Notes: generated by a model from the sequence alone, not told the origin. DNA of 64,000 bases from Trypanosoma brucei (GCA_000002445.1 CM000208.1:2464001-2528000); one strand, 5' to 3'; positions 8,487 to 53,511 are shown, counted from the first letter of the stretch. Program-made: numbers and translations.

Positions 8487-8523
<37 letters not shown>

Positions 8524-11532: not shown

Positions 11533-11653
11533 TTTCCCAGAGCCACCTAAAGAAGAAAAAGATAGAGCACATACCTGCATCCTGATGCCCAATACACTTC
11601 CACCCACCCATCCCCCTCCCCCAAAAAAATACACACATATATTAGTAAAGTGC

Positions 11654-12766: not shown

Positions 12767-12847
12767 TTGCTGAAGAAAACAAAAGATGTCTGGCACCTGC
12801 AACCCACTAAGTTTTCCCTTAAACCACACAAACTAAAAAATACGATT

Positions 12848-19372: not shown

Positions 19373-22065
19373 AACCACAGTGCAGGGTGCGCAGTGGATA
19401 ATTTGTGGAAAGGCTACCATCCGCGTCCGACCACGTTGTGACGGCCGAATGGTTTCCATCACGACATGGCTGCCCACGTATCACGACGAAACCGATAAGA
19501 GATTCGCAGGGTCCAATGGAAGGAGTGAAAAAAACGGGGTGAAGATGAGGAAAGAAAGGCAACACTTACGAGCATTCCGAAATTAAAGCCCGTGATACGG
19601 AGGAGCTGTGTCAAATTGCGAATGACGGAGACGATGTTGGGATACACCTCACAGCATTAAGCTGGGGTCGCCGTTCTCACTGGCATCCCTGGATGCGATA
19701 ACAAGGAGTTGGGCCATATCGGCGAAACGCTACCAGCAATAGCCGAGCTTTAAGCAGTAAGCGAGGAAAGCTGGTGCAACCGGGAACCCACCACTGGGTG
19801 TGCGACCGGGAAGGGAAGGAAATCCGCAGCCAGTTGGAGTTGGTATTCCAATGGTCGTCGGGCTACTTGGCCACTACCACCCGTACCTCAACCGCCTCAC
19901 ACACCCAACAGCATGCACTTACTCATGCACCAAGACGCATGAATAAATGCACTGGGAAGGTAAATAAATTCAGCTTTAAAAAAAAAAGATGAGCCAGGGA
20001 GATTACGTAAAAGGGGCTCATCCGCACCTCCCGCACACCGCAAAATAATAATAATAATAACGCTATGTTAAAAAGCACAAGCAACGGAAAAGCCTCTGCT
20101 TACATTTGTTAATGCACAGGCGCAGCGCAGCGGAGAGAACCCTGCAATTCTCCATGCGCAAAATCACTGTTCAACCGAAAGGGACGACACCCCGAGTGGC
20201 GCAAGTACGGCGGCCAGGGCATGTTTACAAACATGCGTTGAGTATGGCGACTCGACAATCCCCCAAAAATTATGAAAATGGGGGGCAGCAAGACCCGCAC
20301 CCACAACCCACACGGTTTTAGAGCAAACACGCCTACAGGCATCAAAAAAAGTAAAAAAAACTGGCACAGTCATAAAAGGTCCCAGCCGACTTTCCAGCAC
20401 GTTCTCCACCTTCACCTTTGAACGTTAGAAACATTACAACGGTGATCTGTGTGACGCACCTTTGTTAAATTACCCTTAAAAGATAGACAAAAAGCGAAGG
20501 ATCATTAGCGACGTCGCAATACAACCGAGTTTCCGCAACAACCGCAACGACACCCCATTTCCACACAATGCAAAACCGAAGGCAGCACTTCCTCACCACC
20601 CTTCCGCCTCCGCACTACTTGTCATGACCCCCCGCGTTGTCGCCCCCGTAGTGATACCGCTTCCGTGATTTCAAAGGACATAAACACTTACAAAACTGGT
20701 ACAAATCCCTGCACCATCAACATGATAGTGGTTGGCATACTTTCCAACCGCTGTGGTCTGAACTCGCACTACCTTCCCAACCTCTACAATCACACAAAGG
20801 GACAAAAAAATCAGAGGTTCTACTCCAACCTACGGCGTATTCAGTACCACAGCCCAGCATCCGAAGGGACAAAACACGCACCAACAACTCGGGCACGATT
20901 TACACCGTTCCCTCGCACCGACAAGCCACACAAACACCAAATTCATTACGAAATATAACCATCCCCTCACTAATACAAGGCGAAACAATAAGCATAATCA
21001 AACAGCTGACAGACAGAAATCCACCGCAGGGCTCAATGTAAGCTAACTTCGCCCTCCCCCTCCCTCACCCTATGGCCTCAGTGTTGCCCTGTAAAACCTT
21101 CTCTGACACTAGTCAAGCAGAGGTAAAAACTAACCTAACCCTAACACTCTCACACAATGAAAGGAGAATCCGTGGGGAATTTGGGAAAAGGCAAAGCACA
21201 CACGGTAAGCAGTCGGCACAACCCCTGGCGCAAAGAAGGCGCAACTGCACGCAAACAAGGCATTCGATTCAGTACCTTCTGTAGGATATGTGGGTTGCCA
21301 TACCGTAGGCAGTTACCAGTAACAGAAACGTATGGGGAAGGAAAGAATCAAAATATAGCTAAAGCTCCTCAACGCATATATATATACATATATTACCGTT
21401 TCACAGCCAATTCATACATCACACTTAACGCTCCCTCTAAACAACGACCCCAAACAATAACATCCCCAGGTACCTCACCAACAACAACAACAACACAATT
21501 CTTAATTAGCAAATATGGCTTCAATGGAGGCAAAGGAAGAAAGGAAGGACGTACACTCCAACTGTGAGATCCCGCTCGAATCAGCTGTAGCGACGAGAGT
21601 AGTTAACGGAAGGTCGACCCAGGGACCCACATCGCATCCCTACGCTGCCGTTAACATACCCTCAAGTGAAAATTAAAAAAAAAAATGGACCAAAAGTTGA
21701 TTTCAGCAAAAGTGCGTCCGAAAGAAAGGGCACGAAACAACAAACAGAAAATAATCAGCAGCAAAATAAATACATCACATTACGTGGCTATCACTGGACA
21801 CAACCAATAGTTGGTCAGCACGTGCCAGTAGTCGATCGACAAAATACATAATAATCAGCACAGTTAGCACAGGAGAGATAATATCAGCCCTTTCACGCAA
21901 CGCATTATCCACACTCACAACACGAAACAACTACGTTGAGGACAAACGAATGGCGCCACCCAATGGCATACTCCTGCGTACATTGATCTCCACAGTGCAG
22001 CACTCATACGTAAAGACCTTCCAATCACAGTTTAAAAAAGAGGAAAATACCGCTTCTCAAATATT

Positions 22066-25000
22066 CTACACCTTGCGACCCGAGTGATTAACGAAGGTTG
22101 CGCGGTTAGTCGTAACATACATCGAAGGGTCCACATGACGGACCTGTACTGCAGGTTTCCCAATGGGACGAGGAGGACATTGTACCTCAGGCCTGATAAA
22201 CCTGTTGCGGTATTCGCTGCTTACACCTTGCATAGAAATGCTTGACTGTTTAACAGTCGGAGCAGCCTTTGGCATATAAGGTTTGCTGGCACCGTGTGCC
22301 TTGAAATCTCTATGCGCGGTACTCACGTACATATCAGCATCTACATGACAAGGGCAGGAATAACCAACATTAGGGGCCTTTTTCCACTTTGACACACGTA
22401 CTCCGTTACCAGTTGGTTGATCGCCCACAGCCGCAGCAGCACACTCAGTAGTAGCTGCAACAGCCGCAGCAGCACCTCCATTACTCTCCCCACTTGCGAC
22501 ACACTTCATATCAGTGGAGACATCAACCTTCTTTGATGTCACACCACCATCACTTTTACCTTTCACGACCTTCTTAACAACAATAGCATCAGCTACAGAT
22601 GAAGCAGTAAAGCTATGCCTCTTAGATATAACAGATTCATCACCAAAGGAAGACTCCCTACACGAACTCTTATAACAAGAAGAATCATAGCGACAATACG
22701 AATCCTTTGCAGTTGTCCTAAAGTGGCCATCATCACCACCGCGACTTGACACTTTCACAACTTCCTCACGGAGCACATCACGCTTATATGCGGCAGGGTC
22801 AATTGGTGCATACGATTCTGCAGTGGTTGAGCGGAAGTGACTGGGATCAACATGACGAGGGCCCGTTGCCTCCTCTTCCTCACGGAGCACATCACGCTTA
22901 TATGCGGCAGGGTCAATTGGCGCATACGATTCTGCAGTGGTTGAGCGGAAGTGACTGGGATCAACATGACGAGGGCCCGTTGCCTCCTCTTCCTCACGGA
23001 GCACATCACGCTTATATGCGGCAGGGTCAATTGGCGCATACGATTCTGCAGTGGTTGAGCGGAAGTGACTGGGATCAACATGACGAGGGCCCGTTACCTC
23101 CTCTTCCTCACGGAGCACATCACGCTTATATGCGGCAGGGTCAATTGGCGCATACGATTCTGCAGTGGTTGAGCGGAAGTGACTGGGATCAACATGACGA
23201 GGGCCCGTTACCTCCTCTTCCTCACGGAGCACATCACGCTTATATGCGGCAGGGTCAATTGGTGCATACGATTCTGCAGTGGTTGAGCGGAAGTGACTGG
23301 GATCAACATGACGAGGGCCCGTTACCTCCTCTTCCTCACGGAGCACATCACGCTTATATGCGGCAGGGTCAATTGGTGCATGCGATTCTGCAGTGGTTGA
23401 GCGGAAGTGACTGGGGTCAACATGACGAGGGCCCGTTACCTCCTCTTCCTCACGGAGCACATCACGCTTATATGCGGCAGGGTCAATTGGCGCATACGAT
23501 TCTGCAGTGGTTGAGCGGAAGTGACTGGGGTCAACATGACGAGGGCCCGTTACCTCCTCTTCCTCACGGAGCACATCACGCTTATATGCGGCAGGGTCAA
23601 TTGGCGCATACGATTCTGCAGTGGTTGAGCGGAAGTGACTGGGGTCAACATGACGAGGGCCCGTTACCTCCTCTTCCTCACGGAGCACATCACGCTTATA
23701 TGCGGCAGGGTCAATTGGTGCATACGATTCTGCAGTGGTTGAGCGGAAGTGACTGGGGTCAACATGACGAGGGCCCGTTACCTCCTCTTCCTCACGGAGC
23801 ACATCACGCTTATATGCGGCAGGGTCAATTGGCGCATACGATTCTGCAGTGGTTGAGCGGAAGTGACTGGGGTCAACATGACGAGGGCCCGTTACCTCCT
23901 CTTCCTCACGGAGCACATCACGCTTATATGCGGCAGGGTCAATTGGCGCATACGATTCTGCAGTGGTTGAGCGGAAGTGACTGGGGTCAACATGACGAGG
24001 GCCCGTTACCTCCTCTTCCTCACGGAGCACATCACGCTTATATGCGGCAGGGTCAATTGGCGCATACGATTCTGCAGTGGTTGAGCGGAAGTGACTGGGA
24101 TCAACATGACGAGGGCCCGTTGCCTCCTCTTCCTCACGGAGCACATCACGCTTATATGCGGCAGGGTCAATTGGCGCATACGATTCTGCAGTGGTTGAGC
24201 GGAAGTGACTGGGATCAACATGACGAGGGCCCGTTACCTCCTCTTCCTCACGGAGCACATCACGCTTATATGCGGCAGGGTCAATTGGCGCATACGATTC
24301 TGCAGTGGTTGAGCGGAAGTGACTGGGGTCAACATGACGAGGGCCCGTTACCTCCTCTTCCTCACGGAGCACATCACGCTTATATGCGGCAGGGTCAATT
24401 GGCGCATACGATTCTGCAGTGGTTGAGCGGAAGTGACTGGGATCAACATGACGAGGGCCCGTTACCTCCTCTTCCTCACGGAGCACATCACGCTTATATG
24501 CGGCAGGGTCAATTGGCGCATACGATTCTGCAGTGGTTGAGCGGAAGTGACTGGGATCAACATGACGAGGGCCCGTTACCTCCTCTTCCTCACGGAGCAC
24601 ATCACGCTTATATGCGGCAGGGTCAATTGGCGCATACGATTCTGCAGTGGTTGAGCGGAAGTGACTGGGATCAACATGACGAGGGCCCGTTACCTCCTCT
24701 TCCTCACGGAGCACATCACGCTTATATGCGGCAGGGTCAATTGGTGCATACGATTCTGCAGTGGTTGAGCGGAAGTGACTGGGGTCAACATGACGAGGGC
24801 CCGTTACCTCCTCTTCCTCACGGAGCACATCACGCTTATATGCGGCAGGGTCAATTGGTGCATACGATTCTGCAGTGGTTGAGCGGAAGTGACTGGGGTC
24901 AACATGACGAGGGCCCGTTACCTCCTCTTCCTCACGGAGCACATCACGCTTATATGCGGCAGGGTCAATTGGCGCATACGATTCTGCAGTGGTTGAGCGG

Positions 25001-28000
25001 AAGTGACTGGGGTCAACATGACGAGGGCCCGTTACCTCCTCTTCCTCACGGAGCACATCACGCTTATATGCGGCAGGGTCAATTGGCGCATACGATTCTG
25101 CAGTGGTTGAGCGGAAGTGACTGGGGTCAACATGACGAGGGCCCGTTACCTCCTCTTCCTCACGGAGCACATCACGCTTATATGCGGCAGGGTCAATTGG
25201 TGCATACGATTCTGCAGTGGTTGAGCGGAAGTGACTGGGGTCAACATGACGAGGGCCCGTTACCTCCTCTTCCTCACGGAGCACATCACGCTTATATGCG
25301 GCAGGGTCAATTGGCGCATACGATTCTGCAGTGGTTGAGCGGAAGTGACTGGGATCAACATGACGAGGGCCCGTTACCTCCTCTTCCTCACGGAGCACAT
25401 CACGCTTATATGCGGCAGGGTCAATTGGCGCATACGATTCTGCAGTGGTTGAGCGGAAGTGACTGGGATCAACATGACGAGGGCCCGTTGCCTCCTCTTC
25501 CTCACGGAGCACATCACGCTTATATGCGGCAGGGTCAATTGGCGCATACGATTCTGCAGTGGTTGAGCGGAAGTGACTGGGATCAACATGACGAGGGCCC
25601 GTTACCTCCTCTTCCTCACGGAGCACATCACGCTTATATGCGGCAGGGTCAATTGGCGCATACGATTCTGCAGTGGTTGAGCGGAAGTGACTGGGGTCAA
25701 CATGACGAGGGCCCGTTACCTCCTCTTCCTCACGGAGCACATCACGCTTATATGCGGCAGGGTCAATTGGTGCATACGATTCTGCAGTGGTTGAGCGGAA
25801 GTGACTGGGATCAACATGACGAGGGCCCGTTACCTCCTCTTCCTCACGGAGCACATCACGCTTATATGCGGCAGGGTCAATTGGTGCATACGATTCTGCA
25901 GTGGTTGAGCGGAAGTGACTGGGATCAACATGACGAGGGCCCGTTACCTCCTCTTCCTCACGGAGCACATCACGCTTATATGCGGCAGGGTCAATTGGTG
26001 CATACGATTCTGCAGTGGTTGAGCGGAAGTGACTGGGGTCAACATGACGAGGGCCCGTTACCTCCTCTTCCTCACGGAGCACATCACGCTTATATGCGGC
26101 AGGGTCAATTGGCGCATACGATTCTGCAGTGGTTGAGCGGAAGTGACTGGGATCAACATGACGAGGGCCCGTTACCTCCTCTTCCTCACGGAGCACATCA
26201 CGCTTATATGCGGCAGGGTCAATTGGTGCATACGATTCTGCAGTGGTTGAGCGGAAGTGACTGGGGTCAACATGACGAGGGCCCGTTACCTCCTCTTCCT
26301 CACGGAGCACATCACGCTTATATGCGGCAGGGTCAATTGGCGCATACGATTCTGCAGTGGTTGAGCGGAAGTGACTGGGGTCAACATGACGAGGGCCCGT
26401 TACCTCCTCTTCCTCACGGAGCACATCACGCTTATATGCGGCAGGGTCAATTGGCGCATACGATTCTGCAGTGGTTGAGCGGAAGTGACTGGGATCAACA
26501 TGACGAGGGCCCGTTACCTCCTCTTCCTCACGGAGCACATCACGCTTATATGCGGCAGGGTCAATTGGCGCATACGATTCTGCAGTGGTTGAGCGGAAGT
26601 GACTGGGATCAACATGACGAGGGCCCGTTACCTCCTCTTCCTCACGGAGCACATCACGCTTATATGCGGCAGGGTCAATTGGCGCATACGATTCTGCAGT
26701 GGTTGAGCGGAAGTGACTGGGGTCAACATGACGAGGGCCCGTTACCTCCTCTTCCTCACGGAGCACATCACGCTTATATGCGGCAGGGTCAATTGGCGCA
26801 TACGATTCTGCAGTGGTTGAGCGGAAGTGACTGGGGTCAACATGACGAGGGCCCGTTACCTCCTCTTCCTCACGGAGCACATCACGCTTATATGCGGCAG
26901 GGTCAATTGGCGCATACGATTCTGCAGTGGTTGAGCGGAAGTGACTGGGGTCAACATGACGAGGGCCCGTTACCTCCTCTTCCTCACGGAGCACATCACG
27001 CTTATATGCGGCAGGGTCAATTGGCGCATACGATTCTGCAGTGGTTGAGCGGAAGTGACTGGGATCAACATGACGAGGGCCCGTTACCTCCTCTTCCTCA
27101 CGGAGCACATCACGCTTATATGCGGCAGGGTCAATTGGCGCATACGATTCTGCAGTGGTTGAGCGGAAGTGACTGGGGTCAACATGACGAGGGCCCGTTA
27201 CCTCCTCTTCCTCACGGAGCACATCACGCTTATATGCGGCAGGGTCAATTGGCGCATACGATTCTGCAGTGGTTGAGCGGAAGTGACTGGGATCAACATG
27301 ACGAGGGCCCGTTACCTCCTCTTCCTCACGGAGCACATCACGCTTATATGCGGCAGGGTCAATTGGTGCATACGATTCTGCAGTGGTTGAGCGGAAGTGA
27401 CTGGGGTCAACATGACGAGGGCCCGTTGCCTCCTCTTCCTCACGGAGCACATCACGCTTATATGCGGCAGGGTCAATTGGCGCATACGATTCTGCAGTGG
27501 TTGAGCGGAAGTGACTGGGATCAACATGACGAGGGCCCGTTGCCTCCTCTTCCTCACGGAGCACATCACGCTTATATGCGGCAGGGTCAATTGGTGCATA
27601 CGATTCTGCAGTGGTTGAGCGGAAGTGACTGGGATCAACATGACGAGGGCCCGTTACCTCCTCTTCCTCACGGAGCACATCACGCTTATATGCGGCAGGG
27701 TCAATTGGTGCATACGATTCTGCAGTGGTTGAGCGGAAGTGACTGGGGTCAACATGACGAGGGCCCGTTACCTCCTCTTCCTCACGGAGCACATCACGCT
27801 TATATGCGGCAGGGTCAATTGGTGCATACGATTCTGCAGTGGTTGAGCGGAAGTGACTGGGGTCAACATGACGAGGGCCCGTTACCTCCTCTTCCTTACG
27901 GAGCACATCACGCTTATATGCGGCAGGGTCAATTGGTGCATACGATTCTGCAGTGGTTGAGCGGAAGTGACTGGGGTCAACATGACGAGGGCCCGTTACC

Positions 28001-28839: not shown

Positions 28840-29169
28840 CCTTCCTTTGGTATTTTTGATTCCTATTTATTGTAAGTAGTTTTTACACTTATATTTCTGA
28901 AGGTAAGATGCTTCTTTTTCTTAGGTGATTTATGGATATTGAGTAGAGAAATTATATCCTGCAGAGGGGTGTGTGGTAAATTATCTTACAGCGAATATTC
29001 TAATTTTTTTTCATCATTTGGGGTTGAGTTAGCGGATATTAAGGTATACTTTTGGTGTTCAGTCATCACAGTTCCTTGTGGAAGGTGTTACTCATGCAAA
29101 TACACGTGACGTTAGGCGTTTGAGAAACTGCCTCCTTTTCTACATCTACTGACTGGCAACCGCTGGTCG

Positions 29170-44801: not shown

Positions 44802-45958
44802 CACCAAAAAAAACAACTTCACACAAAACAAAGAATAAGCTCCTTGGCAACGCTACCACAAAAGAATAAGTACAGAATACAAAAAAAAAAGAGCGAAAAA
44901 GCTGTAGCGAAATCCACCGCAGGGCTCAATGTAAGCTAACTTCGCCCTCCCCCTCCCTCACCCTATGGCCTCAGTGTTGCCCTGTAAAACCTTCTCTGAC
45001 ACTAGTCAAGCAGAGGTAAAAACTAACCTAACCCTAACACTCTCACACAATGAAAGGAGAATCCGTGGGGAATTTGGGAAAAGGCAAAGCACACACGGTA
45101 AGCAGTCGGCACAACCCCTGGCGCAAAGAAGGCGCAACTGCACGCAAACAAGGCATTCGATTCAGTACCTTCTGTAGGATATGTGGGTTGCCATACCGTA
45201 GGCAGTTACCAGTAACAGAAACGTATGGGGAAGGAAAGAATCAAAATATAGCTAAAGCTCCTCAACGCATATATATATATATATATTACCGTTTCACAGC
45301 CAATTCATACATCACACTTAACGCTCCCTCTAAACAACGACCCCAAACAATAACATCCCCAGGTACCTCACCAACAACAACAACAACACAATTCTTAATT
45401 AGCAAATATGGCTTCAATGGAGGCAAAGGAAGAAAGGAAGGACGTACACTCCAACTGTGAGATCCCGCTCGAATCAGCTGTAGCGACGAGAGTAGTTAAC
45501 GGAAGGTCGACCCAGGGACCCACATCGCATCCCTACGCTGCCGTTAACATACCCTCAAGTGAAAATTAAAAAAAAAAATGGACCAAAAGTTGATTTCAGC
45601 AAAAGTGCGTCCGAAAGAAAGGGCACGAAACAACAAACAGAAAATAATCAGCAGCAAAATAAATACATCACATTACGTGGCTATCACTGGACACAACCAA
45701 TAGTTGGTCAGCACGTGCCAGTAGTCGATCGACAAAATACATAATAATCAGCACAGTTAGCACAGGAGAGATAATATCAGCCCTTTCACGCAACGCATTA
45801 TCCACACTCACAACACGAAACAACTACGTTGAGGACAAACGAATGGCGCCACCCAATGGCATACTCCTGCGTACATTGATCTCCACAGTGCAGCACTCAT
45901 ACGTAAAGACCTTCCAATCACAGTTTAAAAAAGAGGAAAATACCGCTTCTCAAATATT

Positions 45959-48900
45959 CTACACCTTGCGACCCGAGTGATTAACGAAGGTTGCGCGGTT
46001 AGTCGTAACATACATCGAAGGGTCCACATGACGGACCTGTACTGCAGGTTTCCCAATGGGACGAGGAGGACATTGTACCTCAGGCCTGATAAACCTGTTG
46101 CGGTATTCGCTGCTTACACCTTGCATAGAAATGCTTGACTGTTTAACAGTCGGAGCAGCCTTTGGCATATAAGGTTTGCTGGCACCGTGTGCCTTGAAAT
46201 CTCTATGCGCGGTACTCACGTACATATCAGCATCTACATGACAAGGGCAGGAATAACCAACATTAGGGGCCTTTTTCCACTTTGACACACGTACTCCGTT
46301 ACCAGTTGGTTGATCGCCCACAGCCGCAGCAGCACACTCAGTAGTAGCTGCAACAGCCGCAGCAGCACCTCCATTACTCTCCCCACTTGCGACACACTTC
46401 ATATCAGTGAAGACATCAACCTTCTTGGATGTCACACCACCATCACTTTTACCTTTCACGACCTTCTTAACAACAATAGCATCAGCTTCAGATGAAGCAG
46501 TAAAGCTATGCCTCATAGACATAACAGATTCATCACCAAAGGAAGACTCCCTACACGAACTCTTATAACAAGAAGAATCATAGCGACAATACGAATCCTT
46601 TGCAGTTGTCCTAAAGTGGCCATCATCACCACCGCGACGTGACACTTTCACAACTTCCTCACGGAGCACATCACGCTTATATGCGGCAGGGTCAATTGGC
46701 GCATACGATTCTGCAGTGGTTGAGCGGGAGTGACTGGGATCAACATGACGAGGGCCCGTTACCTCCTCTTCCTCACGGAGCACATCACGCTTATATGCGG
46801 CAGGGTCAATTGGCGCATACGATTCTGCAGTGGTTGAGCGGAAGTGACTGGGGTCAACATGACGAGGGCCCGTTACCTCCTCTTCCTCACGGAGCACATC
46901 ACGCTTATATGCGGCAGGGTCAATTGGCGCATACGATTCTGCAGTGGTTGAGCGGAAGTGACTGGGATCAACATGACGAGGGCCCGTTGCCTCCTCTTCC
47001 TCACGGAGCACATCACGCTTATATGCGGCAGGGTCAATTGGCGCATACGATTCTGCAGTGGTTGAGCGCAAGTGACTGGGATCAACATGACGAGGGCCCG
47101 TTGCCTCCTCTTCCTCACGGAGCACATCACGCTTATATGCGGCAGGGTCAATTGGCGCATACGATTCTGCAGTGGTTGAGCGGAAGTGACTGGGATCAAC
47201 ATGACGAGGGCCCGTTGCCTCCTCTTCCTCACGGAGCACATCACGCTTATATGCGGCAGGGTCAATTGGCGCATACGATTCTGCAGTGGTTGAGCGGAAG
47301 TGACTGGGATCAACATGACGAGGGCCCGTTGCCTCCTCTTCCTCACGGAGCACATCACGCTTATATGCGGCAGGGTCAATTGGCGCATACGATTCTGCAG
47401 TGGTTGAGCGGAAGTGACTGGGATCAACATGACGAGGGCCCGTTACCTCCTCTTCCTCACGGAGCACATCACGCTTATATGCGGCAGGGTCAATTGGTGC
47501 ATACGATTCTGCAGTGGTTGAGCGGAAGTGACTGGGGTCAACATGACGAGGGCCCGTTACCTCCTCTTCCTCACGGAGCACATCACGCTTATATGCGGCA
47601 GGGTCAATTGGCGCATACGATTCTGCAGTGGTTGAGCGGAAGTGACTGGGATCAACATGACGAGGGCCCGTTACCTCCTCTTCCTCACGGAGCACATCAC
47701 GCTTATATGCGGCAGGGTCAATTGGTGCATACGATTCTGCAGTGGTTGAGCGGAAGTGACTGGGATCAACATGACGAGGGCCCGTTACCTCCTCTTCCTC
47801 ACGGAGCACATCACGCTTATATGCGGCAGGGTCAATTGGTGCATACGATTCTGCAGTGGTTGAGCGGAAGTGACTGGGGTCAACATGACGAGGGCCCGTT
47901 ACCTCCTCTTCCTCACGGAGCACATCACGCTTATATGCGGCAGGGTCAATTGGTGCATACGATTCTGCAGTGGTTGAGCGGAAGTGACTGGGGTCAACAT
48001 GACGAGGGCCCGTTACCTCCTCTTCCTCACGGAGCACATCACGCTTATATGCGGCAGGGTCAATTGGCGCATACGATTCTGCAGTGGTTGAGCGGAAGTG
48101 ACTGGGATCAACATGACGAGGGCCCGTTACCTCCTCTTCCTCACGGAGCACATCACGCTTATATGCGGCAGGGTCAATTGGCGCATACGATTCTGCAGTG
48201 GTTGAGCGGAAGTGACTGGGATCAACATGACGAGGGCCCGTTACCTCCTCTTCCTCACGGAGCACATCACGCTTATATGCGGCAGGGTCAATTGGCGCAT
48301 ACGATTCTGCAGTGGTTGAGCGGAAGTGACTGGGGTCAACATGACGAGGGCCCGTTACCTCCTCTTCCTCACGGAGCACATCACGCTTATATGCGGCAGG
48401 GTCAATTGGCGCATACGATTCTGCAGTGGTTGAGCGGAAGTGACTGGGGTCAACATGACGAGGGCCCGTTACCTCCTCTTCCTCACGGAGCACATCACGC
48501 TTATATGCGGCAGGGTCAATTGGCGCATACGATTCTGCAGTGGTTGAGCGGAAGTGACTGGGGTCAACATGACGAGGGCCCGTTACCTCCTCTTCCTCAC
48601 GGAGCACATCACGCTTATATGCGGCAGGGTCAATTGGCGCATACGATTCTGCAGTGGTTGAGCGGAAGTGACTGGGGTCAACATGACGAGGGCCCGTTAC
48701 CTCCTCTTCCTCACGGAGCACATCACGCTTATATGCGGCAGGGTCAATTGGTGCATACGATTCTGCAGTGGTTGAGCGGAAGTGACTGGGGTCAACATGA
48801 CGAGGGCCCGTTACCTCCTCTTCCTCACGGAGCACATCACGCTTATATGCGGCAGGGTCAATTGGCGCATACGATTCTGCAGTGGTTGAGCGGAAGTGAC

Positions 48901-51900
48901 TGGGGTCAACATGACGAGGGCCCGTTACCTCCTCTTCCTCACGGAGCACATCACGCTTATATGCGGCAGGGTCAATTGGCGCATACGATTCTGCAGTGGT
49001 TGAGCGGAAGTGACTGGGATCAACATGACGAGGGCCCGTTACCTCCTCTTCCTCACGGAGCACATCACGCTTATATGCGGCAGGGTCAATTGGTGCATAC
49101 GATTCTGCAGTGGTTGAGCGGAAGTGACTGGGGTCAACATGACGAGGGCCCGTTACCTCCTCTTCCTCACGGAGCACATCACGCTTATATGCGGCAGGGT
49201 CAATTGGCGCATACGATTCTGCAGTGGTTGAGCGGAAGTGACTGGGATCAACATGACGAGGGCCCGTTACCTCCTCTTCCTCACGGAGCACATCACGCTT
49301 ATATGCGGCAGGGTCAATTGGCGCATACGATTCTGCAGTGGTTGAGCGGAAGTGACTGGGGTCAACATGACGAGGGCCCGTTACCTCCTCTTCCTCACGG
49401 AGCACATCACGCTTATATGCGGCAGGGTCAATTGGTGCATACGATTCTGCAGTGGTTGAGCGGAAGTGACTGGGGTCAACATGACGAGGGCCCGTTACCT
49501 CCTCTTCCTCACGGAGCACATCACGCTTATATGCGGCAGGGTCAATTGGTGCATACGATTCTGCAGTGGTTGAGCGGAAGTGACTGGGATCAACATGACG
49601 AGGGCCCGTTGCCTCCTCTTCCTCACGGAGCACATCACGCTTATATGCGGCAGGGTCAATTGGCGCATACGATTCTGCAGTGGTTGAGCGGAAGTGACTG
49701 GGATCAACATGACGAGGGCCCGTTACCTCCTCTTCCTCACGGAGCACATCACGCTTATATGCGGCAGGGTCAATTGGTGCATACGATTCTGCAGTGGTTG
49801 AGCGGAAGTGACTGGGGTCAACATGACGAGGGCCCGTTGCCTCCTCTTCCTCACGGAGCACATCACGCTTATATGCGGCAGGGTCAATTGGCGCATACGA
49901 TTCTGCAGTGGTTGAGCGGAAGTGACTGGGATCAACATGACGAGGGCCCGTTACCTCCTCTTCCTCACGGAGCACATCACGCTTATATGCGGCAGGGTCA
50001 ATTGGCGCATACGATTCTGCAGTGGTTGAGCGGAAGTGACTGGGATCAACATGACGAGGGCCCGTTACCTCCTCTTCCTCACGGAGCACATCACGCTTAT
50101 ATGCGGCAGGGTCAATTGGCGCATACGATTCTTCAGTGGTTGAGCGGAAGTGACTGGGATCAACATGACGAGGGCCCGTTACCTCCTCTTCCTCACGGAG
50201 CACATCACGCTTATATGCGGCAGGGTCAATTGGTGCATACGATTCTGCAGTGGTTGAGCGGAAGTGACTGGGATCAACATGACGAGGGCCCGTTACCTCC
50301 TCTTCCTCACGGAGCACATCACGCTTATATGCGGCAGGGTCAATTGGTGCATGCGATTCTGCAGTGGTTGAGCGGAAGTGACTGGGGTCAACATGACGAG
50401 GGCCCGTTACCTCCTCTTCCTCACGGAGCACATCACGCTTATATGCGGCAGGGTCAATTGGTGCATACGATTCTGCAGTGGTTGAGCGGAAGTGACTGGG
50501 GTCAACATGACGAGGGCCCGTTACCTCCTCTTCCTCACGGAGCACATCACGCTTATATGCGGCAGGGTCAATTGGCGCATACGATTCTGCAGTGGTTGAG
50601 CGGAAGTGACTGGGGTCAACATGACGAGGGCCCGTTACCTCCTCTTCCTCACGGAGCACATCACGCTTATATGCGGCAGGGTCAATTGGCGCATACGATT
50701 CTGCAGTGGTTGAGCGGAAGTGACTGGGGTCAACATGACGAGGGCCCGTTACCTCCTCTTCCTCACGGAGCACATCACGCTTATATGCGGCAGGGTCAAT
50801 TGGCGCATACGATTCTGCAGTGGTTGAGCGGAAGTGACTGGGGTCAACATGACGAGGGCCCGTTACCTCCTCTTCCTCACGGAGCACATCACGCTTATAT
50901 GCGGCAGGGTCAATTGGCGCATACGATTCTGCAGTGGTTGAGCGGAAGTGACTGGGATCAACATGACGAGGGCCCGTTACCTCCTCTTCCTCACGGAGCA
51001 CATCACGCTTATATGCGGCAGGGTCAATTGGTGCATACGATTCTGCAGTGGTTGAGCGGAAGTGACTGGGGTCAACATGACGAGGGCCCGTTACCTCCTC
51101 TTCCTCACGGAGCACATCACGCTTATATGCGGCAGGGTCAATTGGCGCATACGATTCTGCAGTGGTTGAGCGGAAGTGACTGGGATCAACATGACGAGGG
51201 CCCGTTACCTCCTCTTCCTCACGGAGCACATCACGCTTATATGCGGCAGGGTCAATTGGTGCATACGATTCTGCAGTGGTTGAGCGGAAGTGACTGGGGT
51301 CAACATGACGAGGGCCCGTTGCCTCCTCTTCCTCACGGAGCACATCACGCTTATATGCGGCAGGGTCAATTGGCGCATACGATTCTGCAGTGGTTGAGCG
51401 GAAGTGACTGGGATCAACATGACGAGGGCCCGTTGCCTCCTCTTCCTCACGGAGCACATCACGCTTATATGCGGCAGGGTCAATTGGTGCATACGATTCT
51501 GCAGTGGTTGAGCGGAAGTGACTGGGATCAACATGACGAGGGCCCGTTACCTCCTCTTCCTCACGGAGCACATCACGCTTATATGCGGCAGGGTCAATTG
51601 GTGCATACGATTCTGCAGTGGTTGAGCGGAAGTGACTGGGGTCAACATGACGAGGGCCCGTTACCTCCTCTTCCTCACGGAGCACATCACGCTTATATGC
51701 GGCAGGGTCAATTGGTGCATACGATTCTGCAGTGGTTGAGCGGAAGTGACTGGGGTCAACATGACGAGGGCCCGTTACCTCCTCTTCCTCACGGAGCACA
51801 TCACGCTTATATGCGGCAGGGTCAATTGGTGCATACGATTCTGCAGTGGTTGAGCGGAAGTGACTGGGATCAACATGACGAGGGCCCGTTACCTCCTCTT

Positions 51901-52276
51901 CCTCACGGAGCATATCACGCTTATATGCGGCAGGGTCAATTGGTGCATACGATTCTGCAGTGGTTGAGCGGAAGTGACTGGGATCAACATGACGAGGGCC
52001 CGTTACCTCCTCTTCCTCACGGAGCATATCACGCTTATATGCGGCAGGGTCAATTGGTGCATACGATTCTTTCATTGTGGAAAGTATTTCTTTATAATTT
52101 TGTTTATTTGCTTTTTGTTGTTTCATATAAAGGTTTTCAGTATTGTGCGGCAAACTTTTTTTTTTGTTTTTTATGTCGATGCAATCGTAGACCTCTGCTC
52201 TTTCTTTATCTCTTTGTGGATATGGTTGCGGATCATTCCACTTATAGTCTGCTTCTAATCCCTTTGTGCCAGGCAT
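45959..52276 (-). CDS. MARP: Microtubule-associated repetitive protein (MARP-type), copy B, 2105 aa, about 46-47 repeats of 38 aa
   Basis: Same architecture and termini as copy A. The unique C-terminal domain differs at a few residues (for example …SRRGGDDGH…, …MSMRHSF…, …SSEADAIV…). Confidence 0.85.
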   Translation of the reverse strand: MPGTKGLEADYKWNDPQPYPQRDKERAEVYDCIDIKNKKKSLPHNTENLYMKQQKANKQNYKEILSTMKESYAPIDPAAYKRDMLREEEEVTGPRHVDPSHFRSTTAESYAPIDPAAYKRDMLREEEEVTGPRHVDPSHFRSTTAESYAPIDPAAYKRDVLREEEEVTGPRHVDPSHFRSTTAESYAPIDPAAYKRDVLREEEEVTGPRHVDPSHFRSTTAESYAPIDPAAYKRDVLREEEEVTGPRHVDPSHFRSTTAESYAPIDPAAYKRDVLREEEEATGPRHVDPSHFRSTTAESYAPIDPAAYKRDVLREEEEATGPRHVDPSHFRSTTAESYAPIDPAAYKRDVLREEEEVTGPRHVDPSHFRSTTAESYAPIDPAAYKRDVLREEEEVTGPRHVDPSHFRSTTAESYAPIDPAAYKRDVLREEEEVTGPRHVDPSHFRSTTAESYAPIDPAAYKRDVLREEEEVTGPRHVDPSHFRSTTAESYAPIDPAAYKRDVLREEEEVTGPRHVDPSHFRSTTAESYAPIDPAAYKRDVLREEEEVTGPRHVDPSHFRSTTAESYAPIDPAAYKRDVLREEEEVTGPRHVDPSHFRSTTAESYAPIDPAAYKRDVLREEEEVTGPRHVDPSHFRSTTAESHAPIDPAAYKRDVLREEEEVTGPRHVDPSHFRSTTAESYAPIDPAAYKRDVLREEEEVTGPRHVDPSHFRSTTEESYAPIDPAAYKRDVLREEEEVTGPRHVDPSHFRSTTAESYAPIDPAAYKRDVLREEEEVTGPRHVDPSHFRSTTAESYAPIDPAAYKRDVLREEEEATGPRHVDPSHFRSTTAESYAPIDPAAYKRDVLREEEEVTGPRHVDPSHFRSTTAESYAPIDPAAYKRDVLREEEEATGPRHVDPSHFRSTTAESYAPIDPAAYKRDVLREEEEVTGPRHVDPSHFRSTTAESYAPIDPAAYKRDVLREEEEVTGPRHVDPSHFRSTTAESYAPIDPAAYKRDVLREEEEVTGPRHVDPSHFRSTTAESYAPIDPAAYKRDVLREEEEVTGPRHVDPSHFRSTTAESYAPIDPAAYKRDVLREEEEVTGPRHVDPSHFRSTTAESYAPIDPAAYKRDVLREEEEVTGPRHVDPSHFRSTTAESYAPIDPAAYKRDVLREEEEVTGPRHVDPSHFRSTTAESYAPIDPAAYKRDVLREEEEVTGPRHVDPSHFRSTTAESYAPIDPAAYKRDVLREEEEVTGPRHVDPSHFRSTTAESYAPIDPAAYKRDVLREEEEVTGPRHVDPSHFRSTTAESYAPIDPAAYKRDVLREEEEVTGPRHVDPSHFRSTTAESYAPIDPAAYKRDVLREEEEVTGPRHVDPSHFRSTTAESYAPIDPAAYKRDVLREEEEVTGPRHVDPSHFRSTTAESYAPIDPAAYKRDVLREEEEVTGPRHVDPSHFRSTTAESYAPIDPAAYKRDVLREEEEVTGPRHVDPSHFRSTTAESYAPIDPAAYKRDVLREEEEVTGPRHVDPSHFRSTTAESYAPIDPAAYKRDVLREEEEVTGPRHVDPSHFRSTTAESYAPIDPAAYKRDVLREEEEVTGPRHVDPSHFRSTTAESYAPIDPAAYKRDVLREEEEVTGPRHVDPSHFRSTTAESYAPIDPAAYKRDVLREEEEATGPRHVDPSHFRSTTAESYAPIDPAAYKRDVLREEEEATGPRHVDPSHFRSTTAESYAPIDPAAYKRDVLREEEEATGPRHVDPSHLRSTTAESYAPIDPAAYKRDVLREEEEATGPRHVDPSHFRSTTAESYAPIDPAAYKRDVLREEEEVTGPRHVDPSHFRSTTAESYAPIDPAAYKRDVLREEEEVTGPRHVDPSHSRSTTAESYAPIDPAAYKRDVLREEVVKVSRRGGDDGHFRTTAKDSYCRYDSSCYKSSCRESSFGDESVMSMRHSFTASSEADAIVVKKVVKGKSDGGVTSKKVDVFTDMKCVASGESNGGAAAAVAATTECAAAAVGDQPTGNGVRVSKWKKAPNVGYSCPCHVDADMYVSTAHRDFKAHGASKPYMPKAAPTVKQSSISMQGVSSEYRNRFIRPEVQCPPRPIGKPAVQVRHVDPSMYVTTNRATFVNHSGRKV
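46650..52065. repeat. Tandem array of 114-bp units (MARP repeat array B)
   Basis: 114-bp period with the same three variant positions as array A. Confidence 0.9.
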
Positions 52277-52606
52277 CCTTCCTTTGGTATTTTTGATTCC
52301 TATTTATTGTAAGTAGTTTTTACACTTATATTTCTGAAGGTAAGATGCTTCTTTTTCTTAGGTGATTTATGGATATTGAGTAGAGAAATTATATCCTGCA
52401 GAGGGGTGTGTGGTAAATTATCTTACAGCGAATATTCTAATTTTTTTTCATCATTTGGGGTTGAGTTAGCGGATATTAAGGTATACTTTTGGTGTTCAGT
52501 CATCACAGTTCCTTGTGGAAGGTGTTACTCATGCAAATACACGTGACGTTAGGCGTTTGAGAAACTGCCTCCTTTTCTACATCTACTGACTGGCAACCGC
52601 TGGTCG

Positions 52607-53179
52607 TTACATTTGGGTTCTCGCGCCACAGTTCCTTCCCGCGGACAACTGTCTTTGCACGTGGTGGTTTAAAATGGTGACATCCATAGCAGACTTTGTT
52701 GTGCGAAATCGGTCAACCATGGCATCATCTACTGTTGGTTGGTTTACTGGTTTGGACAGTTTCCCAGTTAGTGCAAAGCGGTCTACGCCGCTGAGCGTGT
52801 TTAACGGTTTGCAATGGTGCTTTGGCTTCCCATACCTGCTATCAATCAGGTATCGCTGTGTGGCGCCATAGTCTTTGCTTGTTGCCACAACTTCATCGAC
52901 TGTTGGTAGGCCGCTTCCAAATATAAGGCTCTTCCCGAGTCCACGCTGCCGCAACATCGGCCGGACAGCTGTAACACATGGGGTAGAGTAATCAGCCTTA
53001 TAAACTGAGGACGGCAGCGGAGATTGGCCGTCTACTGCGATCGTGAATTTGCCATGCGCCTCATTGATGCGTGCGTCGAACCAGTTATCTACGAGGACAC
53101 CGCTGTTGTAATGGTTGTCAAAACATGGAAGAACTCGCTTGTCCCCGGTGTGCATGCTGGCGCCTGCAACCGATTCCAC
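52607..53179 (-). CDS. Hypothetical 190-aa protein, copy B (identical to 29170-29742)
   Basis: Identical ORF in the duplicated segment. Confidence 0.5.
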   Translation of the reverse strand: MESVAGASMHTGDKRVLPCFDNHYNSGVLVDNWFDARINEAHGKFTIAVDGQSPLPSSVYKADYSTPCVTAVRPMLRQRGLGKSLIFGSGLPTVDEVVATSKDYGATQRYLIDSRYGKPKHHCKPLNTLSGVDRFALTGKLSKPVNQPTVDDAMVDRFRTTKSAMDVTILNHHVQRQLSAGRNCGARTQM

Positions 53180-53511
53180 TCACCCCAGAGCTTTGTGCTG
53201 CCTAGCACTGAGGATTCACCTAAATTACAGTGCAATCGGCTCAGTCACATGGTGTAACACGAGTGTGGTTGCGGTTCAAAGGGAATGGTGAGAGAAGAAA
53301 AAAAGTGTAAAGCCCCCGTCGAGGAGATCCCACAAGGGTGGAGAGAGGAAGGAGTGGCATGTAGCCAAACTACAGGCAAGGAATACACACTTGAGTACTA
53401 ATGCACAAGTTATAGGGAGACTTTCGTTTTTACCCTAACCCTTATCTTGGGTGTCGCAAGGGCGGAGAAAAGTTTATCCCTTTTTTGGTTCACAGCCTTT
53501 CTGTCCTTACT

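What the first reader, a model, noticed from the sequence alone, without database searches (positions are those of the whole stretch)
21018..53387. Direct segmental duplication of about 8.5-8.9 kb carrying a MARP gene and a 190-aa gene, separated by about 15 kb with five unrelated genes
21018-29950 and 44911-53387 are near-identical in flanks, the 190-aa ORF, the MARP termini and about 1 kb of 3' flank. They differ by four repeat units and a handful of point differences in the MARP C-terminal domain. Such high identity implies recent duplication or ongoing gene conversion. Because the 5' upstream regions and 3' flanks are duplicated too, both MARP copies probably share mRNA processing signals. 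This is a hotspot for unequal recombination, which could delete or triplicate the 15-kb block containing SMC2, CDC27 and the kinase. It is also a likely assembly-collapse site.
Basis: seen in the sequence. Interest (0 to 1): 0.6.

Follow-up and report, generated by a model that had tools for sequence, protein, structure and literature searches.

The report
Known MARP gene pair, partly misassembled
The window holds the two known Trypanosoma brucei MARP cytoskeleton-gene loci, each next to a copy of a small flagellar gene; the duplication is real and long annotated, but the near-perfect identity of the repeat cores is most likely an error of this old assembly version.

Summary
Observation confirmed. 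Windows 21016-29951 (8936 bp) and 44909-53388 (8480 bp) are direct copies, 99.3% identical, and differ in length by four 114-bp units.

The window is GenBank T. b. brucei TREU927 chromosome 10, just upstream of the EP/PAG1 procyclin locus. Each copy carries FAP95/MC6 (182 aa, a flagellar microtubule inner protein) and a MARP gene. These correspond to Tb927.10.10290/10280 and Tb927.10.10370/10360. Six genes lie between the copies, not five.

The duplication is old and shared. T. b. gambiense DAL972 and T. b. equiperdum IVM-t1 have both copies with the same outer boundaries. In those genomes only two flanking blocks (1.0 kb and 1.8 kb) are near-identical. Variants in the blocks sort by strain and never by locus, which indicates gene conversion.

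Between the blocks, copy A holds MARP-2. Copy B holds MARP-1 (different N-terminus, repeats 50% identical) in DAL972, IVM-t1 and T. equiperdum OVI. In this window copy B carries a MARP-2-type core, and no MARP-1 sequence exists anywhere.

Later literature gives Tb927.10.10360 as 3196 aa and 374 kDa, which fits MARP-1 composition. Proteomics against the current reference separates the two MARPs. The core identity is therefore most likely an artefact of a superseded assembly (about 0.72). A real cassette conversion in TREU927 remains possible (about 0.15). Known genes; low novelty.

The parts
21016..29951 (-). Duplicated unit, copy A (locus A, next to the EP/PAG1 procyclin locus); corresponds to Tb927.10.10280 + Tb927.10.10290
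   Evidence: Self-BLAST and boundary check. Collinear with T. b. equiperdum IVM-t1 locus L005 and DAL972 L004.
44909..53388 (-). Duplicated unit, copy B (locus B, between the DEAD-box helicase and the MORN kinase; the ancestral position); corresponds to Tb927.10.10360 + Tb927.10.10370
   Evidence: Synteny DEAD helicase - MC6 homologue - MAP - MORN kinase - SMC2 - CDC27 in T. grayi and T. theileri.
29170..29718 (-).
   Evidence: Protein identical to copy B and to TREU927 EAN78422.1/EAN78430.1. Matches PDB 9e2g_1G / 9e5c 'FAP95/MC6' over 1-182 at E 7e-125. MC6 = Tb927.10.10370 in PMC10460401 Supplementary Data 2.
52607..53155 (-). FAP95/MC6 gene, copy B (182 aa)
22066..28839 (-). MARP-2 gene at locus A (2257 aa, 254.6 kDa): 69-aa N-terminal domain, 51.5 x 38-aa repeats, about 230-aa C-terminal domain
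   Evidence: A 2257-aa TREU927 'putative MAP' is listed in PMC12114266 Table 4. A MARP2 probe lies upstream of EP/PAG1 (PMC2731899).
45959..52276 (-). MARP ORF at locus B (2105 aa, 237.5 kDa) with a MARP-2-type N-terminus and repeats. It sits where other genomes, and apparently the current reference, have MARP-1.
   Evidence: Tb10.406.0560 is given as 237.4 kDa, pI 5.2 in PMC3282761. Locus B is MARP-1 in DAL972, IVM-t1 and OVI.
22761..28633 (-). 114-bp tandem array of copy A, 51.5 units, 99% internal identity
   Evidence: TRF; unit typing.
46654..52070 (-). 114-bp tandem array of copy B, 47.5 units. It has the same unit-variant pool as A in near-equal proportions, but the interior order is random relative to A.
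28954..29951 (-). Upstream homology block of copy A (998 bp: 233 bp 5' flank, MC6 gene, 216 bp 3' of it). It is also duplicated in other Trypanozoon genomes. Its copy-B counterpart is 52391-53388.
   Evidence: 99.9% identical between A and B in IVM-t1 and 99.8% in DAL972. Variants sort by strain, not by locus.
21016..22807 (-). Downstream homology block of copy A (about 1.79 kb: end of the last repeat, C-terminal domain, 1050-bp 3' flank). It is also duplicated in other genomes. Its copy-B counterpart is 44909-46699.
   Evidence: 99.2-99.4% identical between A and B in IVM-t1. About 25 sites sort by strain and none by locus. The hybrid last repeat is visible in DAL972 P0017.
46700..52390 (-). 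Core of copy B that disagrees with other genomes: 115 bp upstream of the ATG, the N-terminal domain and the repeat array. It is MARP-2-type here and MARP-1-type elsewhere. This is the suspected misassembled or superseded segment.
   Evidence: Homology to IVM-t1 locus B breaks at 52391 and resumes at about 46699. No MARP-1 motif occurs in any frame of the window.
29952..44908 (-). Unique 14,957-bp spacer with six genes: 593-aa hypothetical (30375-32156), 481-aa metallophosphoesterase-like (32528-33973), Tctex dynein light chain (34460-34789), CDC27/APC3 (35158-36831), SMC2 (37566-41093), MORN-repeat protein kinase (42981-44801)
   Evidence: Pfam. Exact matches to TREU927 EAN78423-EAN78428, with their names.

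Best explanation
The window is the GenBank (2005-era) sequence of T. b. brucei TREU927 chromosome 10. It spans the two MARP loci that end the RNA polymerase II unit upstream of the EP/PAG1 procyclin locus.

A two-gene cassette is genuinely present twice in direct orientation, about 15 kb apart. The cassette holds FAP95/MC6, a flagellar microtubule inner protein, followed by a microtubule-associated repetitive protein (MARP). Locus B, between the DEAD-box helicase and the MORN kinase, is the ancestral site. Locus A is a derived copy found in the T. brucei group.

The homology that is really conserved is two blocks: about 1.0 kb around MC6, and about 1.8 kb covering the MARP C-terminal domain and 3' flank. 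Gene conversion between the loci keeps these blocks at or above 99% identity within every strain. This step is shown by the strain-wise, not locus-wise, sorting of variants.

Between the blocks the loci normally differ. A encodes MARP-2, whose repeat resembles the ancestral type. B encodes MARP-1, which has an unrelated N-terminus and a repeat 50% identical to MARP-2.

In this window the B core is a second MARP-2-type array. I infer that this is an assembly artefact of this reference version. MARP-2 reads, possibly from the second allele, were joined through the identical flanking blocks into locus B, with array interiors that could not be ordered. The segment has since been superseded by a MARP-1-type model. 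The unit counts (51.5 and 47.5) are therefore not reliable either.
For: Identity of the window:
- Nine window proteins match TREU927 accessions exactly and in order (EAN78423-78428, 78431, 78433, 78434).
- ORF sizes of 2257 and 2105 aa equal the TREU927 'putative MAP' entries in PMC12114266 Table 4.
- EP1 and EP2 procyclin genes lie at 17078-17503 and 15759-16148, and MARP sits upstream of EP/PAG1 (PMC2731899).

Real, old duplication:
- MC6 is annotated twice in TREU927 and in DAL972.
- The outer boundaries are the same in DAL972 and IVM-t1.

Concerted evolution of the flanks:
- In the 1.0-kb and 1.8-kb blocks, 927 A+B share about 30 alleles against DAL972 and IVM-t1 A+B. No site separates A from B across strains.

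Locus B is MARP-1 elsewhere:
- DAL972, with contigs anchored in unique sequence on both sides.
- IVM-t1.
- T. equiperdum OVI.
- The repeat matches the MARP-1 motif, whose strings occur in Hemphill 1992. Repeat identity is 19/38, as reported for MARP-1 versus MARP-2.

The window has no MARP-1 motif in any frame.

The reference was revised:
- Tb10.406.0560 is 237.4 kDa in a 2012 paper, equal to window copy B.
- By 2020, Tb927.10.10360 is given as 3196 aa and 374 kDa, and Tb927.10.10280 as 267 kDa.
- 374 kDa over 3196 aa is 117 Da per residue. That fits MARP-1 units (118.1), not MARP-2 units (113.4, which would give about 361 kDa).
- Proteomics against the TriTrypDB 927 database quantifies 'Tb927.10.10280', 'Tb927.10.10360' and 'Tb10.v4.0052;Tb927.10.10280' as separate groups. 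That would not happen if both proteins shared the same repeats.

Array interiors look unordered:
- The same nine shared unit types occur in near-equal numbers in A and B, out of 13 types seen in total.
- Only the first nine units are collinear. The remainder is indistinguishable from a shuffle.

DAL972:
- DAL972 contigs were ordered against 927 (PMC2854126).
- A MARP-2-type contig sits between two N-gaps inside its MARP-1 gene. This is what copying a wrong reference layout would produce.
Against: - No reads and no TriTrypDB or Lister 427 sequence could be examined. The revision is inferred from published protein sizes and proteomic grouping.
- Neither repeat type reproduces 3196 aa with a whole number of units.
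- Copy B carries private substitutions in the C-terminal domain (22517, 22534, 22622, 22627 equivalents) that are contiguous with MARP-2-type units. Those reads therefore came from a real MARP-2-type gene end, either an allele of locus A or a true locus B.
- The NCBI TREU927 protein set, as listed in PMC12114266 Table 4, shows four MARP-2-like proteins and no obvious MARP-1-type one.
- The flanking homology (1.0 kb and 1.8 kb) would allow a genuine cassette replacement.
Confidence: 0.72

Rival explanations
1. Real cassette conversion in TREU927. A gene-conversion or double-crossover event used the 1.0-kb and 1.8-kb flanking homology blocks to replace the MARP-1 core at locus B with a copy of the MARP-2 core, on one or both haplotypes. 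On this view the window is correct for at least one haplotype.
For: - The flanking blocks demonstrably undergo conversion in every strain and are long enough for homologous replacement of a heterologous core.
- The N-terminal region and the first nine units are identical between A and B apart from a 4-unit indel.
- Copy B has its own private C-terminal substitutions joined to MARP-2-type units.
- No MARP-1-type TREU927 protein appears in the BLASTP list of PMC12114266.
Against: - Published size and mass of Tb927.10.10360 (3196 aa, 374 kDa) fit MARP-1 composition.
- TriTrypDB-927-based proteomics separates the two MARPs.
- Three other Trypanozoon genomes keep MARP-1 at B.
- The interior unit order is random between A and B, which is unexpected for a recent copy of a whole array.
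Confidence: 0.15
2. Recent whole-unit duplication. The 8.5-kb unit was copied recently in this lineage, and the high identity reflects the young age of the copy.
For: 99.3% identity over the whole unit with sharp boundaries.
Against: - Both loci, with the same outer boundaries, exist in T. b. gambiense DAL972 and T. b. equiperdum IVM-t1. The duplication therefore predates strain divergence.
- The cores there have diverged to 50% amino-acid identity.
- Flank variants sort by strain, which needs conversion rather than youth.
Confidence: 0.03
3. The second copy as a whole is an assembly artefact, and there is only one MARP / MC6 locus.
For: Highly repetitive region. Repeat counts differ between reference versions.
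Against: - Each copy is anchored in different unique neighbours.
- Both loci appear in the gap-free IVM-t1 chromosome record, in DAL972 and in part in T. equiperdum OVI contigs.
- Two MARP proteins were characterised experimentally (Affolter 1994, as cited).
Confidence: 0.01

Closest known systems
[quoted passage not shown]
   Same: [quoted passage not shown]
- C-terminal domains are about 97% identical between the copies.
- Located upstream of the EP/PAG1 procyclin locus.
- Copy A matches MARP-2 in every respect tested.
   Different: In this window the locus-B gene has MARP-2-type N-terminus and repeats instead of the MARP-1 type (EEVTTDMRHVDESHFLTTTHEAYKPIDPSEYRQKRTVG) found at that locus in DAL972, IVM-t1 and OVI. 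Sizes (254.6 and 237.5 kDa) differ from those now quoted (267 and 374 kDa).
FAP95/MC6, a doublet-microtubule inner protein of the T. brucei flagellum (PDB 9e2g, 9e5c; MC6 = Tb927.10.10370 in Shimogawa et al. 2023, PMC10460401)
   Same: The 182-aa product of both copies matches the PDB chain end to end at E 7e-125. Proteomics reports a shared group 'Tb927.10.10370;Tb927.10.10290'.
   Different: Nothing different in the protein. I did not find a published statement that it forms a conserved gene pair with MARP.
Concerted evolution of dispersed paralogues by gene conversion in trypanosomes (general phenomenon; compare the segmental duplications catalogued for T. b. brucei versus T. b. gambiense in PMC2854126)
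   Same: Paralogous blocks share strain-private variants and lack locus-specific ones.
   Different: Conversion here is confined to two flanking blocks around a core that has diverged to about 52% DNA identity. The MARP pair is not in the parts of that paper's species-specific duplication table returned by my term search, and the terms 'MARP' and 'microtubule-associated' do not occur in its main text.
T. cruzi antigen 36 / MAP and other trypanosomatid 38-aa-repeat MAPs (T. grayi, T. theileri, T. congolense)
   Same: - Same 38-aa period and the same PRHVDP..HFRSTT...PIDP.AYKR motif.
- Same conserved C-terminal domain.
- Same neighbours at locus B.
   Different: Outgroups show one locus within the stretch seen, with MARP-2-like repeats. 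The second locus and the diverged MARP-1 repeat are seen only in the T. brucei group.

Membership tests
MARP family (T. brucei microtubule-associated repetitive proteins) | Long tandem array of highly conserved 38-aa (114-bp) repeats | tested here: met
   TRF finds period 114, with 51.5 and 47.5 copies at 98-99% matches. Translations show 38-aa units.
MARP family (T. brucei microtubule-associated repetitive proteins) | Short non-repetitive N- and C-terminal domains; C-terminal domain nearly identical between the two paralogues | tested here: met
   69-aa N-terminus and about 230-aa C-terminus. There are 5 amino-acid differences in the unique C-terminal part. The literature gives 95%.
MARP family (T. 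brucei microtubule-associated repetitive proteins) | Binding to subpellicular microtubules through the repeats and the C-terminal domain | not testable with these tools
   Known from Hemphill 1992 (abstract) and Affolter 1994 as cited. No solved structure matches the C-terminal domain.
MARP-2 specifically (copy A) | MARP-2-type repeat, and position immediately upstream of the EP/PAG1 procyclin locus | tested here: met
   EP1 and EP2 lie 3.5 kb downstream. A MARP2 probe in the upstream Pol II unit is described in PMC2731899. Collinear with the IVM-t1 and DAL972 locus A arrays.
MARP-1 specifically (copy B, as Tb927.10.10360 is named in the literature) | MARP-1 repeat (…MRHVDESHFLTTTHEAYKPIDPSEYRQKRTVG…), about 50% identical to the MARP-2 repeat, and an unrelated N-terminal domain | tested here: not met
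   No MARP-1 motif or N-terminus occurs in any of the six frames of the window. Copy B is MARP-2-type throughout. MARP-1 is present at this locus in DAL972, IVM-t1 and OVI.
Segmental duplication homogenised by gene conversion (concerted evolution) | Duplication present in several lineages with the same boundaries | tested here: met
   Same outer boundaries in DAL972 and IVM-t1. MC6 is annotated twice in 927 and DAL972.
Segmental duplication homogenised by gene conversion (concerted evolution) | Paralogues within a genome share lineage-specific variants, and there are no locus-specific fixed differences | tested here: met
   Upstream block: 5-6 sites. Downstream block: about 25 sites. All sort by strain and none by locus. 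Caveat: the DAL972 consensus may mix reads from both loci. IVM-t1 has no gaps in this region.
Segmental duplication homogenised by gene conversion (concerted evolution) | Homogenisation extends over the whole unit, including the repeat core | tested here: not met
   This holds only in this window. In IVM-t1, DAL972 and OVI the cores are MARP-1 versus MARP-2, with 52% DNA identity per unit.
Assembly artefact at a long near-perfect tandem repeat | Disagreement with independent assemblies and with later versions of the same reference | tested here: met
   Three other genomes differ at the locus-B core. Published sizes changed from 237.4 to 374 kDa and from 254.6 to 267 kDa. The current reference separates the two proteins in proteomics.
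Assembly artefact at a long near-perfect tandem repeat | Read-level evidence: depth, spanning reads, mis-paired clones | not testable with these tools
FAP95/MC6 microtubule inner protein | Sequence identity to the protein modelled in the T. brucei doublet-microtubule structure | tested here: met
   PDB 9e2g_1G / 9e5c match residues 1-182 to 1-182 at E 7e-125. MC6 = Tb927.10.10370.

The most novel reading that the evidence does not exclude
In TREU927, on at least one haplotype, a single conversion tract of at least 5.7 kb anchored in the 1.0-kb and 1.8-kb flanking homology blocks has replaced the MARP-1 core at the ancestral locus with the MARP-2 core. This would be a natural 'cassette swap' of a heterologous repeat array, mechanistically like VSG gene conversion. 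Strains would then differ in whether they have MARP-1 at all.
Probability: 0.13. Interest if true: 0.45.

Novelty: already known. Interest (0 to 1): 0.2.

Why it matters
The biology is mostly bookkeeping. The two MARP genes and the two MC6 copies are annotated and have been studied.

The practical value is a warning. In the GenBank TREU927 chromosome 10 record, the gene at the MARP-1 locus reads as a second MARP-2, and the repeat counts of both genes are unreliable. Work that relies on this record would be misled. That includes primer, RNAi or tagging design, peptide databases, copy-number calls, and reference-guided scaffolding. The DAL972 record appears to show the scaffolding effect.

Two smaller points may interest trypanosome cell biologists:
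- A flagellar microtubule inner protein gene and a subpellicular microtubule-binding protein gene form a conserved gene pair that was duplicated together.
- Gene conversion keeps the flanks of the two loci identical while the repeat cores have diverged to 50%. The diverged MARP-1 sits at the ancestral locus.

Tried and rejected
- Exact look-up of the window's 182-aa protein and of the TREU927 copy in the contig index found nothing. The TREU927 genome is not readable through that tool.
- Exact look-up of both window MARP proteins, the IVM-t1 MARP-1 and the DAL972 MARP-2 found none in the protein collection. Long repetitive proteins seem to be absent from it.
- Two homology searches aimed at MARP-1 and MARP-2 proteins returned only four short proteins. 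The TREU927 4119-aa (Tb10.v4.0053) and 4880-aa entries could not be retrieved or typed.
- The body text of Hemphill 1992 is indexed for search but not readable.
- Searches for old gene IDs and for MARP peptides in main texts gave only one useful hit.
- The paper behind PDB 9e2g/9e5c is not in the library.
- I looked for decayed homology or microhomology outside the duplication boundaries and found none above shuffles.
- Unit typing of the IVM-t1 array failed because single-base indels break the register.
- I tried to reproduce 3196 aa with whole numbers of units. Neither repeat type fits exactly, so I rely on mass per residue instead.
- I considered and rejected a recent duplication and a wholly artefactual second copy (see rivals).

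Full report
**1. The observation**

A self-BLAST of the window gives two direct copies, 21016-29951 (8936 bp) and 44909-53388 (8480 bp). Base-by-base comparison shows sharp boundaries. The 1745-bp left flank has 7 mismatches and the 1318-bp right flank has 2. The length difference of 456 bp equals four 114-bp units.

Tandem Repeats Finder reports 114-bp arrays of 51.5 units (22761-28633) and 47.5 units (46654-52070) at 98-99% internal identity. The best gapped alignment has 62 mismatches in 8480 bp (99.27%). There is no similarity beyond the boundaries above what shuffles give.

**2. What the genes are**

All genes in this part of the window are on the minus strand. Each unit holds two genes.

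- The first is an ORF of 190 aa counted from a GTG. Its ATG-initiated product of 182 aa is identical in both copies.
- The second is a large ORF (2257 aa in A, 2105 aa in B). It consists of a 69-aa N-terminal domain, 38-aa repeats (…SYAPIDPAAYKRDVLREEEEVTGPRHVDPSHFRSTTAE…) and a C-terminal domain of about 230 aa.

Nine proteins of the window are exact matches, in consecutive order, to TREU927 GenBank accessions. These are EAN78423 to EAN78428, EAN78431, EAN78433 and EAN78434. Several of them are private to TREU927. The 182-aa protein is EAN78422.1 and EAN78430.1. The sizes 2257 and 2105 aa are those of the TREU927 'putative microtubule-associated protein' entries listed in PMC12114266 Table 4. 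The window is therefore the GenBank TREU927 chromosome 10 record (4,054,025 bp).

Downstream of copy A lie the EP1 (17078-17503) and EP2 (15759-16148) procyclin genes and four PAG-like ORFs. This is the EP/PAG1 locus. PMC2731899 places MARP (probe 'MARP2') in the Pol II unit just upstream of it.

The literature calls Tb927.10.10280 MARP-2 (BBP268, TbKHAP3) and Tb927.10.10360 MARP-1 (TbKHAP2).

The 182-aa protein matches PDB chains 9e2g_1G and 9e5c, 'FAP95/MC6', end to end at E 7e-125. MC6 is Tb927.10.10370 in Supplementary Data 2 of PMC10460401, where a shared protein group 'Tb927.10.10370;Tb927.10.10290' also appears. So the duplicated cassette is a flagellar microtubule inner protein gene plus a MARP gene.

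The spacer holds six genes, not five:

- a 593-aa hypothetical protein
- a 481-aa metallophosphoesterase-like protein
- a Tctex-type dynein light chain
- CDC27/APC3
- SMC2
- a MORN-repeat protein kinase

**3. Other genomes**

The exact-sequence look-up of the MC6 protein brought in four loci:

- both loci of T. b. gambiense DAL972 (L004 = A, L003 = B)
- locus B of T. b. equiperdum IVM-t1 (L002)
- locus B of T. equiperdum OVI (L001)

The 593-aa neighbour brought in IVM-t1 locus A (L005).

Locus A in IVM-t1 and DAL972 is collinear with window copy A. IVM-t1 has a MARP-2 array of 53.5 units there.

Locus B is different in all three genomes. After the MC6 gene the sequence matches the window for only 216 bp. 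Then comes a different upstream region, a different N-terminus (MYEKKKQQVYKNNKDEQ…) and a different 38-aa repeat (EEVTTDMRHVDESHFLTTTHEAYKPIDPSEYRQKRTVG). Homology resumes inside the last repeat ('…PIDP|AAYKRD…') and runs through the C-terminal domain and 3' flank.

That repeat is the MARP-1 repeat. Its strings occur in Hemphill 1992. It is 19/38 identical to the MARP-2 repeat, which matches the '~50%' in the literature.

The window contains no MARP-1 motif or N-terminus in any frame.

**4. What is truly duplicated, and how it is maintained**

In IVM-t1 the A and B loci share two blocks:

- a 999-bp upstream block at 99.9% identity
- a downstream block of 347 + 1426 bp at 99.2-99.4% identity

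The outer boundaries are the same as in the window. Nothing is shared in between.

I aligned these blocks from 927 A and B, DAL972 A and B, IVM-t1 A and B, and OVI B. Variable sites sort by strain. For example, about 25 downstream sites read 927_A = 927_B, different from DAL_A = IVM_A = IVM_B. None sorts by locus. The duplication predates these strains, so this pattern is the signature of continuing gene conversion between the two loci.

Within 927, the differences between A and B are private singletons on one copy or the other. In the C-terminal coding part, five are non-synonymous and one is synonymous.

**5. Direction of the duplication**

T. grayi and T. theileri have the following order: MCM - uS11m-like - trypanothione reductase - DEAD helicase - MC6 homologue (42-43% identity) - MAP - MORN kinase - SMC2 - CDC27. 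Locus B is therefore the ancestral position.

Only one MC6 homologue was recovered from T. congolense. Its accession number places it at locus B (weak evidence).

Outgroup repeats (T. grayi, T. theileri, T. congolense) are MARP-2-like. The derived locus A therefore keeps the ancestral-type repeat, and the ancestral locus B carries the diverged MARP-1. This point is an inference.

**6. Why copy B's core in this window is probably not real**

a) Three other genomes have MARP-1 at locus B. In DAL972 it is anchored in unique sequence on both sides.

b) The reference has evidently changed.
- A 2012 paper lists Tb10.406.0560 at 237.4 kDa, pI 5.2. That is window copy B, at 237.5 kDa and pI 5.28.
- Papers from 2020 give Tb927.10.10360 as 3196 aa and 374 kDa, and Tb927.10.10280 as 267 kDa. 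Window copy A is 254.6 kDa.
- Adding three MARP-2 units to copy A gives 267.6 kDa.
- 374 kDa over 3196 aa is 117.0 Da per residue. MARP-1 units weigh 118.1 Da per residue and MARP-2 units 113.4.
- A 3196-aa MARP-2-type protein would weigh about 361 kDa. A MARP-1-type protein would weigh about 375 kDa.

c) Proteomics searched against the TriTrypDB 927 database quantifies 'Tb927.10.10280', 'Tb927.10.10360' and 'Tb10.v4.0052;Tb927.10.10280' as separate, abundant groups. That is not expected if both proteins had the same repeats and N-terminus, as they do in the window.

d) The two arrays use the same pool of unit variants in near-equal numbers (8:7, 8:8, 16:14, 9:5, 4:4 and so on). They are collinear only for the first nine units, about 1 kb from the unique anchor, apart from the 4-unit indel. 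After that the order is no better than random: 52 mismatches against 48.8 +/- 4.5 in 5000 shuffles. This is what an unresolvable array assembled from short reads looks like. Fast unequal exchange in real arrays could also produce it.

[quoted passage not shown] In that record, a MARP-2-type contig sits between two 100-N gaps in the middle of the MARP-1 gene at locus B. This is what copying a reference with a MARP-2-type core at B would produce.

**7. What speaks against the artefact reading**

- I could not read TREU927 reads, the TriTrypDB sequence or Lister 427.
- Neither repeat type gives exactly 3196 aa.
- Copy B's private C-terminal substitutions are contiguous with MARP-2-type units. Those reads came from a genuine MARP-2-type gene end, perhaps the second allele of locus A.
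- The NCBI TREU927 protein list in PMC12114266 shows no obvious MARP-1-type entry.
- The flanking blocks would allow a real replacement of the core by conversion.

I therefore keep a real cassette conversion in TREU927, possibly heterozygous, at about 0.15.

**8.

*Shared processing signals.* The duplicated 233 bp upstream of the MC6 ATG contain pyrimidine tracts, and the 1050-bp MARP 3' flank is shared. The pyrimidine tract that follows the unit at locus B (upstream of the kinase) is outside the duplication and is absent at locus A. In trypanosomes, polyadenylation is coupled to the downstream splice signal (established knowledge). The two MARP mRNAs therefore need not end alike.

*Recombination hotspot.* This is plausible in principle. 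In real genomes the homology is probably only 1.0 and 1.8 kb rather than 8.5 kb. All four genomes examined retain the spacer, which holds SMC2 and CDC27. The idea was not tested further.

**9. Verdict**

The feature is the known MARP-2 / MARP-1 gene pair, each preceded by a copy of FAP95/MC6. It is a dispersed duplication shared across the T. brucei group, and gene conversion homogenises its flanks. The full-length near-identity seen here is most likely a property of this superseded assembly version, not of the organism. Novelty is low. The useful outcome is a caution about this record, plus the small observation of flank-only concerted evolution around a diverged repeat core.

Noticed in passing
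window 15759-16148 (-), 17078-17503 (-); also (CAGGTT)n at 15830-15987 and 17149-17331: The hexamer repeats are the Glu-Pro repeats of two EP procyclin genes. They are EP2-like (129 aa) and EP1-like (141 aa, with an NGT glycosylation site). This marks the Pol I EP/PAG1 locus about 3.5 kb downstream of copy A.
   Followed up: partly
window 9086-10207, 10324-11664, 11654-12829, 12848-14101 (all -); 5987-7396 (+): Four related ORFs downstream of the procyclin genes look like procyclin-associated genes (PAGs). Plus-strand genes end at about 7400, so a convergent strand-switch region lies at roughly 7400-9086, as described for EP/PAG1 in PMC2731899.
   Followed up: no
window 29170-29718 and 52607-53155 (-): The duplicated small gene encodes FAP95/MC6, a flagellar doublet-microtubule inner protein with a solved structure (PDB 9e2g, 9e5c). 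Its position directly upstream of the MAP/MARP gene is conserved in T. grayi and T. theileri. Two microtubule-binding proteins of different compartments therefore form a conserved gene pair.
   Followed up: partly
window 34460-34789 (-): A 109-aa Tctex-type dynein light chain gene (EAN78425.1) lies between the 481-aa gene and CDC27.
   Followed up: yes
window 22746-28859 (+) and 46639-52296 (+): Long antisense ORFs of 2037 and 1885 aa run through the repeat arrays. They are open only because the 114-bp unit has no stop codon in that reverse frame. They are not genes.
   Followed up: partly
L003 12979-13078 and 20170-20269 (DAL972 chromosome 10, FN554973.1): In the T. b. gambiense DAL972 record, a 7.1-kb MARP-2-type contig is placed between two 100-N gaps inside the MARP-1 gene. 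This splits it into 'hypothetical, unlikely' fragments of 725 and 416 aa plus a 2245-aa 'fragment'. It is probably a side effect of ordering contigs against TREU927.
   Followed up: partly
L002 11142-12250 and L005 13527-19597 (T. b. equiperdum IVM-t1, CM010681.1): IVM-t1 has only 9.7 MARP-1 units (679-aa protein), probably collapsed. It also has a 33-bp deletion in the C-terminal domain of locus B. Its 53.5-unit MARP-2 array has single-base indels that break the frame, and no gene was called there.
   Followed up: no
PMC10460401 supplementary data (Tb927.10.10370 versus Tb927.10.10290): Proteomics lists a group 'Tb927.10.10370' alone as well as 'Tb927.10.10370;Tb927.10.10290'. The two MC6 models in the current reference therefore seem not to be identical, although the two window copies encode identical proteins.
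   Followed up: no
window 22517-22746 versus 46410-46639: Six of the seven left-flank differences between the copies cluster in the 230 bp of C-terminal coding sequence next to the array, and five are non-synonymous. The 1050-bp 3' flank has a single difference.
   Followed up: partly
window 57884-58864 (-): The 326-aa 'hypothetical protein' EAN78433.1 falls in the same 90%-identity cluster as mitoribosomal protein uS11m (PDB 6SG9 chain CK).
   Followed up: no
PMC12114266 Table 4 (TREU927 proteins Tb10.v4.0053, 4119 aa, and 'MAP 2', 4880 aa): NCBI holds two further, much longer MARP-2-like TREU927 proteins from unplaced or other records. This is a further sign that the MARP arrays of this strain were never resolved in that assembly. 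I could not retrieve them.
   Followed up: no
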